From assembly GCA_028287225.1 (NCBI GenBank), contig JAQBPZ010000111.1:1-41360 (forward strand): DNA of 41,360 nucleotides. The letters are read 5' to 3'. Each line of letters begins with the position of its first letter. Position 1 is the stretch's first letter. The stretch is from Gemmatimonadota bacterium. Its GTDB lineage: Bacteria; Gemmatimonadota; Gemmatimonadetes; Gemmatimonadales; Gemmatimonadaceae. The notes below the pieces were generated by a model. It ran no database searches. It was given only the letters and a program-made list of their open reading frames with translations, and was not told where the DNA came from. Made by a program: the position numbers and the translations under genes. Positions 26,109 to 29,360 of the stretch are shown one piece after another.

Positions 26109-28196
26109 TCAGCGCATTCCCGCTTCCTCCACCACCTTCTGCGCGGCGTCGTTCGGCATCTCCTCATAGCCGCTGAAGTGGCGCCTGAAGAGTGCGCGGC
26201 CGTGGGTCATCGACTGGAGGGCGCTGGCGTACAGGTGCAGTTCGGACTGCGGCACCACCGCGCGCACGCGGGTGCCGGGGGCGCCCTCCGCGGTCTCCGT
26301 CCCCAGGATATGTCCGCGGCGCGCCGACAGGTCGCCGAGCACGTCGCCCAGGGATTCCTCCGGCGTCACGATCTCCACCTCGTCCAGCGGCTCGAGCAGC
26401 ACCGGCTTGCACTTCGGTGCGATCGTGCGGAACGCCTGGATGCCCGCCATCCGGAACGACATCTCGTTGGAATCCACCGTGTGGTACGAGCCGTCGTAGA
26501 GCTCCACCGTGAAGTCCACGAGCGGGAAGCCCGCGAGCACGCCGCGCTCGGCCGCTTCGTGGATGCCCTTCTCCACCGCCGGGATGAACTTGCTGGGAAT
26601 CGCCCCCCCGACGAACTGGTCGGCGAACTGGATTACCTGCCCGCGGTCGGCCGGCGCGATCCGTACCCAGCAGTCGCCGAACTGCCCGCGGCCCCCCGAC
26701 TGCTTCTTGTGTCGCCCCTGGCCCTCCGCCCGCACCCGGATCGTCTCGCGATACGCGATGCGGGGGCGCCGCAGCTCCGCCGCCACCCCGCACTTCCGGC
26801 GCAGCTTCGCCAGCGCGATCTCGAGATGCCGCTCGCCCATGCCCGCGAGGATCGTCTCGTGGGTCTCCACGTTGTAGCGCGTCTGGAGCGTCGGGTCCTC
26901 GTCGTGGAGGCGATGCAGCCCTGCCTGCAGCTTTTCCTCGTCGGCGCGGTTGGTGGCGAAGATCGCCATCTCCACGAGCGGCTCGGGATACTGCACCTGC
27001 GGCAGCCGCACCGGGTGCGCGCGCGTGGACAGCGTGTCGTTCGTGTGGGTGTTGCGCAGCCGCGCGACGCAGCCGATGTCGCCCGCGTGCAGGCGCGGGA
27101 CCTCCACGCGCTCGCGCCCCTGCGGCGCGGCGAGGTGATTGAGCTTCTCGCCCACGTCGCGCGTCGCGTTGAACACCTCGTCGCCGCTCGCCACGCTCCC
27201 TGAGAGGATGCGGAAGATGCTCACCTCGCCCACGTGCGGCTCGCTCTGGGTCTTGATCACCAGCGCCGAGAACGGCGCGGCGTCGTCCGCGTGGATCTGG
27301 ACGGTGGCCGCCCCCTCCGCGCCGGTGAAGGCGTGCACCTCCTCCATCTCGTACGCGCTCGGCATCAGCTCCACGATCGTCGAGAGCACGGCGCGCGTGC
27401 CGTAGCCGAGCGTGGCGCTCACGCAGAACAGGGGGAAGAGCTCCAGCCGCTTCACCGCCTCCCGCATCGCGGCGATCGCCTCGTCGCGGCTGATCTCCCC
27501 GCCGTTCAGGTATCGCTCGAGCAGCTCGTCATCAGTTGACGCGATCGTCTCGATGAGCTCCGCGTGGTACCGGTCGAACTGCGGACGCACCTCCTCGGGC
27601 ACCGCCGTCTCCGTGTAGCCGCCGCTCCGTCCGCCGGCGGTGTAGACGTGCGCCACGCCGTCGAAGAGGTTGACGACGCCGTGAAAGTCGGCGCCGCTGC
27701 CCACCGGCACCTCGATCGGGATCACCTTGGTCGTGAGCGTCGAGCGGATCCGGCGATAGATCGCGTCGAAGTCCGCGTGCTCCTTGTCCATCATCGAGAC
27801 CACGAAGAGCACGGGATCACCGCGCGTCAGCGCCTCGCGGAACATCCGCTCCGTGCCGACCTCGATCCCCGCGGTGGCGCTGATCACGCAGAGCGCGCCG
27901 TCGGCCGCGGCGAGGCCCGCGATCGCGTCGCCCTGGAAGTCCAGGAAGCCCGGGGTATCCAGCAGGTTGATCTTGGTGCCGGCCCACTCGGCATGCGCGC
28001 AGCCGAGGTTGATGGAGTAGCCCCGCTCCACCTCTTCCGGCGCCGTGTCCGTGAGGGTCGTGCCCTCGGCGATGGAGCCGTGGCGGCGGGTGGTGCCCGA
28101 CGCGAACGCCAGCGCGTCCACCAGCGTGGTCTTGCCACTGCCCCCGTGTCCCACCACGGCGATGTTGCGGATGCTCGATGCCCGGTACGCTCGCAT
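26109..28196 (-). CDS. Elongation factor G paralogue with non-canonical G motifs
   Basis: Full five-domain EF-G colinearity. Start is the ATG at 28194-28196, preceded by GAGG. G1 is GHGGSGKTT, G3 is DTPGFLDF, G4 is SMMD. Confidence 0.9.
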   Translation of the reverse strand: MRAYRASSIRNIAVVGHGGSGKTTLVDALAFASGTTRRHGSIAEGTTLTDTAPEEVERGYSINLGCAHAEWAGTKINLLDTPGFLDFQGDAIAGLAAADGALCVISATAGIEVGTERMFREALTRGDPVLFVVSMMDKEHADFDAIYRRIRSTLTTKVIPIEVPVGSGADFHGVVNLFDGVAHVYTAGGRSGGYTETAVPEEVRPQFDRYHAELIETIASTDDELLERYLNGGEISRDEAIAAMREAVKRLELFPLFCVSATLGYGTRAVLSTIVELMPSAYEMEEVHAFTGAEGAATVQIHADDAAPFSALVIKTQSEPHVGEVSIFRILSGSVASGDEVFNATRDVGEKLNHLAAPQGRERVEVPRLHAGDIGCVARLRNTHTNDTLSTRAHPVRLPQVQYPEPLVEMAIFATNRADEEKLQAGLHRLHDEDPTLQTRYNVETHETILAGMGERHLEIALAKLRRKCGVAAELRRPRIAYRETIRVRAEGQGRHKKQSGGRGQFGDCWVRIAPADRGQVIQFADQFVGGAIPSKFIPAVEKGIHEAAERGVLAGFPLVDFTVELYDGSYHTVDSNEMSFRMAGIQAFRTIAPKCKPVLLEPLDEVEIVTPEESLGDVLGDLSARRGHILGTETAEGAPGTRVRAVVPQSELHLYASALQSMTHGRALFRRHFSGYEEMPNDAAQKVVEEAGMR

Positions 28197-28210
28197 GCGT
28201 CTGCCTCGTG

Positions 28211-28387
28211 CTATGAGTAGGTGCCCGCGCACGGAGGCCACTGTCGGGACGCACGAAAAAGGGCGCCTTCGGGGGCGATGCGCGTCGTGCGCGCGTCGCT
28301 CCTGAGGCGCCCTGCTTCTTCGTCCGGCAACACGCGCTCCCGCCCGGAGTCCCCGGGCCTGGAGTGGTGAGTGGAGAGCCGTGGCAT
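28211..28387 (-). CDS. Candidate 58-codon leader ORF upstream of the EF-G paralogue
   Basis: AGGAGGAGG lies 7 nt before the ATG (28385-28387). The TAG at 28211-28213 is 14 nt before the EF-G ATG. The ORF spans the terminator hairpin. GC3 is lower than in neighbouring genes, so coding status is uncertain. Confidence 0.25.
   Translation of the reverse strand: MPRLSTHHSRPGDSGRERVLPDEEAGRLRSDARTTRIAPEGALFRASRQWPPCAGTYS
28255..28313 (-). terminator. Intrinsic terminator/attenuator in the EF-G paralogue leader
   Basis: AGGGCGCC (28260-28267) pairs with GGCGCCCT (28306-28313). An inner stem is GCGATGCGCG/CGCGCGTCGC. The hairpin is followed on the minus strand by TTTTT (28256-28260). Confidence 0.6.
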
Positions 28388-28501
28388 GGCCCCACCTCCT
28401 CCTGCGGTCGCCCTACTGATGCATCATCCCCGTGGGAGTGTCAAGCAGGCCCAAGGAAACGGGTGGTCCCAGGACTGCGTTTGCGTGATCCCTCAGTCGA
28501 G

Positions 28502-28700
28502 GGGGGAGACCGCATTTGACGGATGCCACGGATCAGAACGGATAACGGCCGCTCTATCAGCCCCGGCGAACCGACCCCGGATCTGGAGCCTCCGGAAATC
28601 ACGGAGGTGTTCGTGGGCGTGGCGCTGTACCCATCCACGACGAGGCCAGCCGAGCGATAATCCGTTTCACCCGTGGCATCCGTCAAATGTTGTCTCCCCC
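28502..28700. repeat. 199-bp structured element bounded by 30-bp inverted repeats
   Basis: GGGGGAGACCGCATTTGACGGATGCCACGG (28502-28531) matches the reverse complement of 28671-28700 at 28/30. Internal hairpin CCTCCG/CGGAGG at 28589-28607. Confidence 0.8.
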
Positions 28701-28731
28701 TTCCAGTGAGGGGCCGGCCCTGGCGATACAG

Positions 28732-28770
28732 GAATGGCCAGGCGCCGGACGAGTCCGGGCCTGGCCATTC
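28732..28770 (-). terminator. Long hairpin downstream of the 181-aa gene
   Basis: GAATGGCCAGGC (28732-28743) pairs with GCCTGGCCATTC (28759-28770), and inner CCGGAC pairs with GTCCGG. No U tract. Confidence 0.45.
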
Positions 28771-28814
28771 ACGAACGAGACGGTGTGCAGGTCAGACGAG
28801 GCAGGCTTCGTCGC

Positions 28815-29360
28815 TCATTCTCCTTCGTACTCGTACGCGAGCGAATCGGCTTCGCGGAGCCGGTCCAGCAGCGATTCCAGCGGAGCGAACACCGGCGCCG
28901 CCAGGCCGGCGACCGGCTCCAGCGAGATGGTGATCGCGCGCCGAGCGCCTTCGGGCCAGTCGGGCATCGAGAGGCCGGCCACCAGGCGGCGGATCAGCTG
29001 GCCGCACTCGCTCAGCAGCTGCGTCGCCGTACCGTGCAGGATGTCCAGCGGGATCTCGAGATCGCGGCTCATCAGCTCACCGGTGCCGACGTCGCGCCAC
29101 GCCGCATCACCGATGGCGCCGTGCTCCGCCCACACGCCGAGATGGCGGATGGCGTTCGGGTATTCATGTCCTTCGCCGGTGCGGTGCGACTCCACCGCGG
29201 CCGCCAGCGCGAGCGCCAGCAGCTCCGGGCTCGGCACGCCGTACAGCGTCACGATGTCACGCGCGGGCCGATTGGACGCGAGCGGGGACGTGACGGAGTT
29301 GACGTGCGCGAGCACCGGCGAATGATCGGGATTCTCGTCGAGCATGACGAGGACGTCCAT
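28815..29360 (-). CDS. Hypothetical protein (181 aa), acidic C-terminus
   Basis: ATG 29358-29360 is preceded by AGGAGGGGG. The longer 213-aa track ORF is the alternative. No family recognised. Confidence 0.6.
   Translation of the reverse strand: MDVLVMLDENPDHSPVLAHVNSVTSPLASNRPARDIVTLYGVPSPELLALALAAAVESHRTGEGHEYPNAIRHLGVWAEHGAIGDAAWRDVGTGELMSRDLEIPLDILHGTATQLLSECGQLIRRLVAGLSMPDWPEGARRAITISLEPVAGLAAPVFAPLESLLDRLREADSLAYEYEGE

What the first reader, a model, noticed from the sequence alone, without database searches (positions are those of the whole stretch)
28197..28444. SD-led 58-codon uORF spanning an intrinsic terminator immediately upstream of an EF-G paralogue: candidate ribosome-mediated attenuation
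Seen on the minus strand, in order. TTGACA is at 28439-28444. AGGAGGAGG lies 7 nt before the ATG at 28387. The 58-codon ORF has its second half encoding a strong hairpin (28260-28313) followed by UUUUU. The ORF stops at 28211-28213, 14 nt before the GAGG-led ATG of the EF-G paralogue at 28196. Established knowledge: ribosome-targeting resistance or rescue factors, including the EF-G-related Tet(M) of Tn916, are controlled by leader-peptide attenuation. Inference: a ribosome translating or stalling in the uORF would melt the terminator, coupling expression of the EF-G paralogue to translational status.
Basis: partly seen in the sequence, partly recalled or inferred. Interest (0 to 1): 0.6.

Follow-up and report, generated by a model that had tools for sequence, protein, structure and literature searches.

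The report
Decayed small gene before EF-G paralogue
The "upstream ORF with a terminator" is real, but it is the shrunken remnant of an 86-residue protein gene that normally sits in front of this EF-G-like gene in Gemmatimonadaceae; it inherited its hairpin from that gene, and whether it now regulates anything is untested.

Summary

The 58-codon ORF is not a dedicated leader peptide. Its first 43 codons are homologous (hhalign probability 95%, E 2.6e-8) to a conserved, unnamed 86-aa protein family. That family was found in 33 of 77 Gemmatimonadaceae genera sampled, and 29 of 30 fetched loci place it directly upstream of the orthologous EF-G paralogue.

In the window, about 26 central codons are deleted, a segment is frame-shifted, and family-invariant residues are lost. 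Promoter, Shine-Dalgarno, start and the ancestral stop survive. The same gene decayed at least three times within this genus.

The hairpin already lies inside the intact gene in this genus and shows some compensatory changes. There it is followed by a U-rich tail that uses a rare TTT codon. It is absent in other genera and was lost in several relatives.

In the window, small indels turned the tail into U5. This is the second-strongest hairpin-plus-T5 site in the genome.

The open frame itself means nothing at 71% GC. Translation-coupled attenuation (pyrBI / Tn916-like) stays plausible but unproven. No RNA data were available.

Verdict: gene relic with an inherited terminator-like hairpin. Moderate interest.

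The parts
28439..28444 (-). -35-like hexamer TTGACA of the promoter that serves the small ORF and the EF-G paralogue
   Evidence: Read. The block CTGCTTGACAC is invariant in all 20 aligned genus loci, at the same position before the small gene.
28410..28424 (-). Conserved block at the -10 position (GCATCAGTAGG; relatives have GCATGTCTTAG and similar)
   Evidence: Alignment of genus leaders. The exact -10 hexamer and the transcription start were not determined.
28390..28403 (-). Shine-Dalgarno region (AGGAGGAGGTGGGG) of the relic ORF, inherited from the intact gene (AGGTGG in relatives)
28211..28387 (-). 58-codon ORF: truncated, partly frame-shifted relic of the 86-aa family gene. It keeps the ancestral start and the ancestral TAG stop.
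   Evidence: hhalign probability 95.2%, E 2.6e-8, residues 1-43 against profile positions 1-41. Profile hit E 0.0035 in the own-genome search, with no second copy. Alignments. Invariant residues F20, W28 and C46 are lost.
28260..28313 (-). Long GC-rich hairpin: outer stem GGGCGCC/GGGCGCC plus the A-U pair that uses the first U of the U-tract, inner stem CGCGC/GCGCG. It corresponds to codons for GRLWSAALEQRD...GAL of the intact gene.
   Evidence: Folds. Conserved in 16 genus loci with 92% of cells paired and 6 pairs with double changes, against 2.6 in shuffles. Not significant in other genera.
28256..28260 (-). U5 tract at the 3' foot of the hairpin (its first U closes the stem). Derived from the CTCGTGTTTCGC (Leu-Val-Phe-Arg codons) of the intact gene.
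   Evidence: This is the second strongest hairpin-plus-T5 in the genome. The U5 is unique to the window among relatives.
28204..28207 (-). GAGG Shine-Dalgarno of the EF-G paralogue, 3 nt after the relic's stop codon
   Evidence: GAGG at this spacing is conserved in all genus loci.
26109..28196 (-). EF-G paralogue, 695 aa, all five EF-G domains. The catalytic His is replaced (DTPGF) and NKxD is degenerate (SMMDKE).
   Evidence: Pfam. NCBIfam NF009381 scores 830 bits against a cut-off of 583. Motifs. The start is conserved in 29 orthologues.

Best explanation
The 58-codon ORF is the decayed remnant of a real gene.

Shown:
- In Gemmatimonadaceae, an unnamed 86-aa protein (predicted four beta strands plus one helix) is encoded 15-22 nt, in most loci, upstream of the orthologue of this EF-G paralogue. 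The paralogue lacks the catalytic histidine.
- In the window's lineage the small gene lost about 26 central codons, and a segment became frame-shifted. Promoter, Shine-Dalgarno, start codon, first 43 codons and the ancestral TAG stop remain.
- The hairpin was not built as a leader terminator. It already lies inside the coding sequence of intact copies in this genus, followed by a U-rich tail (CUC GUG UUU). In the window, small indels converted that tail into U5.

Inferred: the stretch now serves as the 5' leader of the EF-G paralogue mRNA. My most likely mechanism (about 40-45%) has three steps:
1. The hairpin plus U5 terminates part of the transcripts.
2. Ribosomes that still start at the strong SD/ATG run through the hairpin and counteract this.
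3. They stop on the EF-G paralogue's SD.

This would be a passive, peptide-independent coupling inherited from the intact gene pair, of the pyrBI type. It would not be a dedicated sensor peptide. The confidence given applies to the identity of the element (a gene relic with an inherited hairpin), not to the regulatory step.
For: Homology:
- hhalign probability 95%, E 2.6e-8; own-genome profile hit E 0.0035; alignment.

The family is real:
- 659 clusters, almost all 86 aa.
- Found in 68 of 201 family genomes and 33 of 77 genera, one copy each.
- In intact copies, third-position differences are about twice those at positions 1 and 2 (717 against 345 and 355), and dN/dS is 0.09-0.79.
- Directly upstream of the EF-G paralogue in 29 of 30 loci.

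Decay:
- The nucleotide alignment shows the deletion, the frame shift and the shared stop.
- Invariant residues are lost.
- Substitutions between relics are spread evenly over codon positions.
- No coding GC3 signal.
- The EF-G paralogue tree implies at least three separate losses in the genus.

Hairpin inherited:
- Folds of -32 to -55 kcal/mol in 16 genus loci, including 8 intact genes.
- Covariation is above the shuffled and slid controls.

For a terminator role:
- Second strongest hairpin-plus-T5 of the genome, and canonical terminators exist in it.
- The Phe codon after the hairpin is TTT in 10 of 11 intact genus copies but TTC in all 28 copies from other genera. TTT makes up 3.7% of Phe codons in this genome.
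- All 8 decayed loci that keep the hairpin keep a start codon at the ancestral position, with a frame open across the hairpin.
Against: Against any present function of the hairpin:
- It is degenerate in G215.
- Its outer stem is lost in the intact L018 copy.
- It is precisely deleted in frame in L006, and deleted in L009, L010 and L013.
- The U5 occurs only in the window. The closest relatives L005 and L007 have weak tails.
- Synonymous sites in the hairpin codons are not visibly more conserved than elsewhere.

Open frames are expected at 71% GC.

The covariation set was chosen from loci that keep the region, and the loci are related to one another.

No RNA data bear on transcription, termination or translation.
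Confidence: 0.85

Rival explanations
1. Dedicated leader-peptide attenuator. The short ORF is maintained as a sensor whose translation or stalling sets read-through of the terminator. This would tie the EF-G paralogue to the state of the translation machinery, as proposed for orf12/tet(M) of Tn916.
For: The anatomy fits. The SD is strong. The hairpin plus U5 is among the best terminator-like sites in the genome. Start codons and frames across the hairpin are kept wherever the hairpin is kept. A rare TTT codon sits after the hairpin.
Against: The peptide is not conserved. Relics in relatives are in different frames and of different lengths (44-83 codons, or reading into the EF-G gene). Relatives have an 86-aa protein gene in this position, not a short leader. 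U5 is unique to the window. Orthologues in other families of the order have a short 5' UTR with no ORF or hairpin. No antiterminator or stalling motif was identified.
Confidence: 0.2
2. Neutral debris. The relic and its hairpin have no present role. Either the hairpin does not terminate in vivo, or it simply lowers EF-G paralogue expression in a lineage where that gene is under altered constraint.
For: The hairpin is lost or degenerate in 6 of about 23 genus loci. Indels are scattered and substitutions are even across codon positions. The open frame is expected by chance. The window's EF-G paralogue sits on a terminal branch of 0.28 against a median of 0.073, and has the lowest identity to the rest of the genus.
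Against: Compensatory changes keep the stem in decayed lineages. The stems are, if anything, more perfect there. The promoter-proximal part, SD and start are well conserved among relics. The EF-G paralogue is intact, with GC3 about 0.95.
Confidence: 0.3
3. The 58-aa product is itself a functional, shortened version of the small protein.
For: It keeps the ancestral start and stop and an N-terminal half recognisable by profile.
Against: It lacks strands 3-4 and the helix of the predicted fold. It has lost the invariant F20, W28, C46, R51, R55 and A56. Residues after GALFR are read out of the ancestral frame. Relics in relatives differ in frame.
Confidence: 0.04

Closest known systems
pyrBI leader of Escherichia coli (44-codon leader ORF that runs through the attenuator; from my own knowledge, not checked in a paper here)
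   Same: An SD-led ORF spans an intrinsic terminator. A ribosome close behind the polymerase would physically prevent the hairpin. No particular peptide sequence and no antiterminator structure are needed. The ORF length is similar (58 against 44 codons).
   Different: No UTP-sensitive pause sites or any other signal were identified here. The ORF here derives from a protein-coding gene. Nothing is shown experimentally.
orf12 / Ptet leader of tet(M) in Tn916 (Su, He and Clewell 1992, as cited and re-examined in bioRxiv 10.1101/2021.03.24.436905)
   Same: A short ORF and terminator stem-loops lie upstream of an EF-G-related ribosomal GTPase. The proposed read-through depends on translation of the leader.
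   Different: Tet(M) is a resistance protein on a mobile element. This is a chromosomal, vertically inherited EF-G paralogue (NF009381; it scores 287 bits against the tet_protect cut-off of 775). The cited preprint found no toeprint on orf12 and no effect of removing its start codon, so the precedent itself is uncertain.
Unnamed 86-aa Gemmatimonadaceae protein family (hypothetical proteins; no Pfam or NCBIfam model)
   Same: N-terminal 43 residues, promoter, SD, start, stop, and position in front of the EF-G paralogue.
   Different: The window copy lacks about 26 central codons and the invariant core residues. It is a relic, not a functional member.
EF-G2-type paralogues without GTPase activity (Bacteroides EF-G2, mycobacterial EF-G2; papers listed, not read here)
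   Same: The downstream gene is a full-length EF-G paralogue with DTPG[FY] in place of DTPGH across the whole order.
   Different: It scores below the cut-offs of the named EF-G2 models (NF009377: 639 against 890; NF058620: 578 against 1000). I know of no partner small gene described for those.

Membership tests
Leader-peptide transcription attenuator (ORF spanning a terminator) | Short SD-led ORF between the promoter and the regulated gene, on the same strand | tested here: met
Leader-peptide transcription attenuator (ORF spanning a terminator) | Intrinsic-terminator-like hairpin plus U-tract within the leader, upstream of the regulated gene | tested here: met
   Hairpin of about -36 to -47 kcal/mol plus U5. 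Second strongest of the genome's hairpin-T5 sites. The simple scanner missed it because the loop limit is exceeded.
Leader-peptide transcription attenuator (ORF spanning a terminator) | Leader ORF conserved as a short regulatory ORF in orthologous leaders | tested here: not met
   Relatives carry an 86-aa protein gene, or relics in differing frames and lengths. Other families of the order have no ORF.
Leader-peptide transcription attenuator (ORF spanning a terminator) | Premature 3' ends and regulated read-through | not testable with these tools
   No RNA run holds the stretch.
Unnamed 86-aa Gemmatimonadaceae small-protein family | Sequence homology to the family profile | tested here: met
   hhalign probability 95.2%, E 2.6e-8, but over residues 1-43 only.
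Unnamed 86-aa Gemmatimonadaceae small-protein family | Full length (about 82-102 aa) with the invariant core F20, W28, F44, C46, R51, R55, A56, A79, P80 | tested here: not met
   58 aa. F20 is Leu and W28 is Arg. The core from C46 to about residue 75 is absent or out of frame.
Unnamed 86-aa Gemmatimonadaceae small-protein family | Gene lies immediately upstream of the EF-G paralogue | tested here: met
   The stop lies 14 nt before the ATG at 28196. The same arrangement holds in 29 of 30 family loci.
Rho-independent terminator | GC-rich stem directly followed by a U-tract of 5 or more | tested here: met
   The hairpin is longer (54 nt) than typical terminators.
Rho-independent terminator | Lies at the 3' end of a transcription unit | tested here: not met
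   It lies 60 nt upstream of a conserved gene start and downstream of that gene's only recognisable promoter.
EF-G subfamily NF009381 (downstream gene) | Score above the curated cut-off, five EF-G domains | tested here: met
   830 bits against 583. Pfam domains.

The most novel reading that the evidence does not exclude
In this Gemmatimonadaceae genus a terminator-like hairpin with a U-rich tail was built into the coding sequence of a small protein gene. Transcription of the histidine-less EF-G paralogue behind it would therefore depend on ribosomes translating the small gene. When the protein became dispensable, several lineages kept only start, hairpin and stop, so that a protein gene was converted into a translated leader or attenuator. 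The window would be the most advanced example, with a perfected U5 tract.
Probability: 0.22. Interest if true: 0.6.

Novelty: new member of a known kind. Interest (0 to 1): 0.4.

Why it matters
The finding shows how a plausible-looking "leader peptide plus terminator" can be the wreck of a real gene. That matters when attenuators are called from sequence alone in GC-rich genomes, where open frames come free.

It also uncovers an undescribed, widely conserved gene pair in Gemmatimonadaceae: an 86-aa protein with no recognisable fold relative, followed by an EF-G paralogue that lacks the catalytic histidine. The small partner has been lost repeatedly within one genus.

If the retained hairpin does attenuate, this would be a documented path from a coding gene to a cis-regulatory leader.

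Tried and rejected
- **Rfam:** no family matched anywhere in the window.
- **Consensus scanner:** it did not report the hairpin because its loop limit is 3-8 nt; it found only a weak plus-strand site.
- **Pfam and NCBIfam:** no hit for the uORF or for the intact 86-aa protein.
- **Fold searches of the AF2 model (pLDDT 76):**
  - Foldseek against PDB found nothing at E <= 0.001; the top weak rows were PUR-alpha and Whirly-like.
  - VIA-align wide gave a best Z of 5.3, within noise.
  - The ESM Atlas returned only Gemmatimonadota hypotheticals.
- **Fused forms:** a search among longer proteins found two longer calls and no domain fusion.
- **Complex prediction (EF-G paralogue with the 86-aa protein):** no verdict, score 0.01. 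This is neither for nor against binding.
- **Sequencing runs:** no RNA holder is listed, so nothing can be said on expression. Laying contigs only confirmed the DNA sequence.
- **Open frame as evidence of selection:** rejected, because stops are rare in all frames.
- **Extra synonymous constraint in the hairpin codons of intact genes:** none visible with 8 sequences.
- **Codon-position test on the first 135 nt:** uninformative for intact pairs, because the N-terminal tail is variable.
- **Hairpin as an inserted palindromic element:** rejected, because the loop region has the same length in other genera.
- **Earlier scan notes by sequence or words:** nothing relevant.

Full report
**Observation**

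All listed elements are present on the minus strand:
- TTGACA at 28444-28439.
- AGGAGGAGG at 28403-28395, 7 nt before the ATG at 28387.
- A 58-codon ORF ending with TAG at 28213-28211.
- GAGG at 28207-28204.
- The ATG of the EF-G paralogue at 28196.

The ORF translates to a 58-aa product. Folding gives a long GC-rich hairpin at 28313-28260 that runs into UUUUU. Rfam finds nothing in the window. The simple terminator scanner misses the hairpin because of its loop limit.

The window is a whole contig of a 3.75-Mb, 71% GC metagenome-assembled genome. Three run-level assemblies reproduce 28100-28900 without a difference. All come from one study that may be the source of the DNA.

**Surroundings**
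- The downstream gene (26109-28196) has all five EF-G domains. It belongs to NCBIfam subfamily NF009381 and scores below the cut-offs of the named EF-G2 and tetracycline-protection models.
- A second, canonical EF-G (37% identical) lies on another contig.
- The GC3 frame plot shows no coding signal between 28197 and 28814: 0.64-0.76 against about 0.95 in genes.
- The upstream minus-strand gene (28815-29360/29456) is a family-less acidic protein. It is also the upstream neighbour in relatives.
- Between that gene and the promoter, the window alone carries a roughly 220-bp element with 30-nt terminal inverted repeats (28490-28712). It gives about 25 matches in the genome and a fold z-score of -7.9.

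**What the ORF is**

Orthologues of the EF-G paralogue were collected from 40 relatives, and all align from residue 1. In the same genus the leader is conserved: the TTGACAC promoter block, an AGGTGG Shine-Dalgarno and a start codon.

In about half of the loci the ORF behind them is 86 codons long and ends about 20 nt before the EF-G paralogue start. These 86-aa products align well with each other and, over their first half, with the window ORF.

A profile search of 5.8 billion proteins finds 659 clusters, nearly all exactly 86 aa. All are named "hypothetical", from Gemmatimonadaceae or Gemmatimonadota assemblies. No Pfam or NCBIfam family matches.

In a sample of 201 genomes of the family, 68 genomes in 33 of 77 genera have one copy. 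In 29 of 30 fetched loci it lies directly upstream of the EF-G paralogue, mostly 15-22 nt away.

The family evolves as a protein. Third-position differences are about twice those at positions 1 and 2 (717 against 345 and 355), and dN/dS is 0.09-0.79. Fourteen columns are invariant over 36 sequences.

AlphaFold predicts four strands and a helix at pLDDT 76. No convincing structural relative was found, and no fused form.

The window ORF matches the family profile over residues 1-43 (hhalign probability 95.2%, E 2.6e-8; E 0.0035 in the own-genome scan). The genome holds no other copy.

**How it decayed**

The nucleotide alignment shows that the window keeps the start, the first 43 codons, the hairpin and the ancestral stop context: GGCACCTACTCATAG against GGCACACTCTCATAG in intact copies. 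About 80-90 nt of the 3' half are missing. The stretch after GALFR is read in a different frame from the ancestral one.

Invariant residues are replaced (F20 to Leu, W28 to Arg) or gone (C46, R51, R55, A56).

Other genus members show different wrecks:
- Frame shifts in L002, L003, L004, L007, L008 and L014.
- Large deletions in L009, L010 and L013.
- A 56-codon relic with a degenerate hairpin in G215.

On the EF-G paralogue tree the window groups with L005, L007, L009 and L013, all decayed (support 92/72). Two further decayed groups sit among intact copies, so the small gene was lost at least three times in the genus.

Substitutions between relics fall evenly on the three codon positions. The open frame is no argument. 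In the window the ancestral TAG is the only stop in any of the three frames of the 194-nt region, and stops are rare in the relatives' leaders too.

**The hairpin**

It is not specific to the relic. In intact genus copies the codons for GRLWSAALEQRD...GAL fold into the same two-tier hairpin, at -38 to -54 kcal/mol for an 81-84-nt segment. The same holds in eight decayed loci, where the stems are often more perfect.

On 16 loci:
- 92% of cells pair.
- Six pairs show double changes, against 2.6 in shuffles (1 of 500 shuffles reach this).
- The covariation score of 0.213 exceeds all shuffles and all slid controls.

This set is restricted to related loci that keep the region, so the support is moderate.

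In other genera the equivalent coding stretch has about the same length but no significant structure (z about -2.5 to +1.5, against -3.5 and -5.2 in this genus). The hairpin is also not indispensable:
- Its outer stem is lost in intact L018.
- It is deleted exactly and in frame in L006.
- It is degenerate in G215.
- It is absent in L009, L010 and L013.

**The tail**

In intact genus copies the stem is followed by CUC GUG UUU CGC (Leu-Val-Phe-Arg), with five U in the first eight bases. The Phe codon is TTT in 10 of 11 intact genus copies and TTC in all 28 copies from other genera. TTT is only 3.7% of Phe codons in this genome, and the other conserved Phe (F20) uses TTC.

So the rare U-rich codon co-occurs with the hairpin, which hints at selection for a terminator-like signal inside the gene. 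In the window the tail has become UUUUU. This is unique among relatives: L005 and L007 have weak tails.

Genome-wide there are 258 T5+ runs. Canonical hairpin-T5 terminators exist, and the window site is the second strongest.

**Mechanism**

Shown: the stretch is a gene relic with an inherited hairpin, lying between the only recognisable conserved promoter and the EF-G paralogue.

Inferred: the hairpin plus U5 probably stops some transcripts. Ribosomes initiating at the retained strong SD/ATG would unwind it and terminate 3 nt before the paralogue's GAGG. This gives translation-dependent read-through and possibly re-initiation.

Three observations fit this: the conserved 15-22-nt spacing of the intact gene pair; the retention of a start codon and an open frame across the hairpin in all eight decayed loci that keep the hairpin, while 6 of the 16 other frames there have an earlier stop; and the TTT codon. 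None of this is statistically strong, and kin are not independent.

Equally compatible is neutral decay, with a hairpin that is merely slow to erode. The window's EF-G paralogue is the most divergent of the genus: terminal branch 0.28 against a median of 0.073, and mean identity 79.7% against 83-87%. Its canonical EF-G is 91-95% identical to relatives. That could mean altered constraint, but I did not test it further.

**Comparison with known systems**

The closest working analogue is the pyrBI leader of E. coli, where a 44-codon ORF runs through the attenuator (my own knowledge). However, a preprint that re-examined it found no ribosome toeprint on orf12 and no effect of removing its start codon (bioRxiv 10.1101/2021.03.24.436905).

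The element fails one defining feature of leader-peptide attenuators, a conserved dedicated leader ORF. It also fails the core features of the 86-aa family, so I file it as a relic of that family.

All orthologues of the downstream gene in the order have DTPG[FY] instead of DTPGH and [ST]M[ML]DKE instead of NKxD. This recalls the GTPase-deficient EF-G2 proteins in the literature list, which I did not read.

**Caveats on sources**

L008 comes from genome G012, which is flagged as unpublished. It is one of the 16 hairpin sequences and one of the decayed loci, and its sister L014 (G009) shows the same state. G047, also unpublished, contributes only one match to the tally. All relatives are unnamed metagenome-assembled or isolate genomes. 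The family name Gemmatimonadaceae comes from source names of the matching proteins.

**Verdict**

Noticed in passing
window 28490-28712: A roughly 220-bp element with 30-nt terminal inverted repeats folds into one long hairpin (-127 kcal/mol, z -7.9). It gives about 25 matches of 68-86% identity on some 20 contigs of the same genome. It is MITE-like. It sits between the upstream gene and the promoter only in this genome, and it accounts for the unusually long spacer.
   Followed up: partly
window 26109-28196: The EF-G paralogue has DTPGF in place of DTPGH and SMMDKE in place of NKxD. The same replacements (F or Y) occur in all orthologues examined across the order, whether or not the small gene is present.
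   Followed up: partly
window 26109-28196: The window's EF-G paralogue lies on a terminal branch about four times the median (0.28 against 0.073). It has the lowest identity to the rest of the genus, while the canonical EF-G of the same genome is 91-95% identical to relatives. Whether this reflects relaxed or changed selection is unexplained.
   Followed up: partly
L041, L045, L061, L063, L065 (gap between the small gene and the EF-G paralogue): In other genera the gap is enlarged to 109-237 nt by long palindromes whose arms are built of repeated heptamers (for example GGGACGC or CTGCGAA units), at -60 to -141 kcal/mol. These look like the heptad-armed palindromic insertion elements noted elsewhere in this window by an earlier report.
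   Followed up: no
L006 (G015:C2): An otherwise intact small gene has an in-frame deletion of 13 codons that removes exactly the hairpin. The same genome (5% contamination) holds two copies of the EF-G paralogue, on contigs C2 and C24.
   Followed up: no
L012 and 35 other loci (alignment A3): The intact 86-aa protein family is uncharacterised: no Pfam or NCBIfam model, a predicted four-strand-plus-helix fold without a convincing solved relative, and one copy per genome. It was found in 33 of 77 sampled Gemmatimonadaceae genera, directly upstream of the EF-G paralogue in 29 of 30 fetched loci.
   Followed up: yes
window 28815-29360: The acidic 181-aa family-less protein upstream (MDVLVMLDENPDHSPVLAHV...) is also the upstream neighbour of the small gene in several genus relatives (L007, L009, L010, L013). 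The three-gene order is therefore conserved.
   Followed up: no
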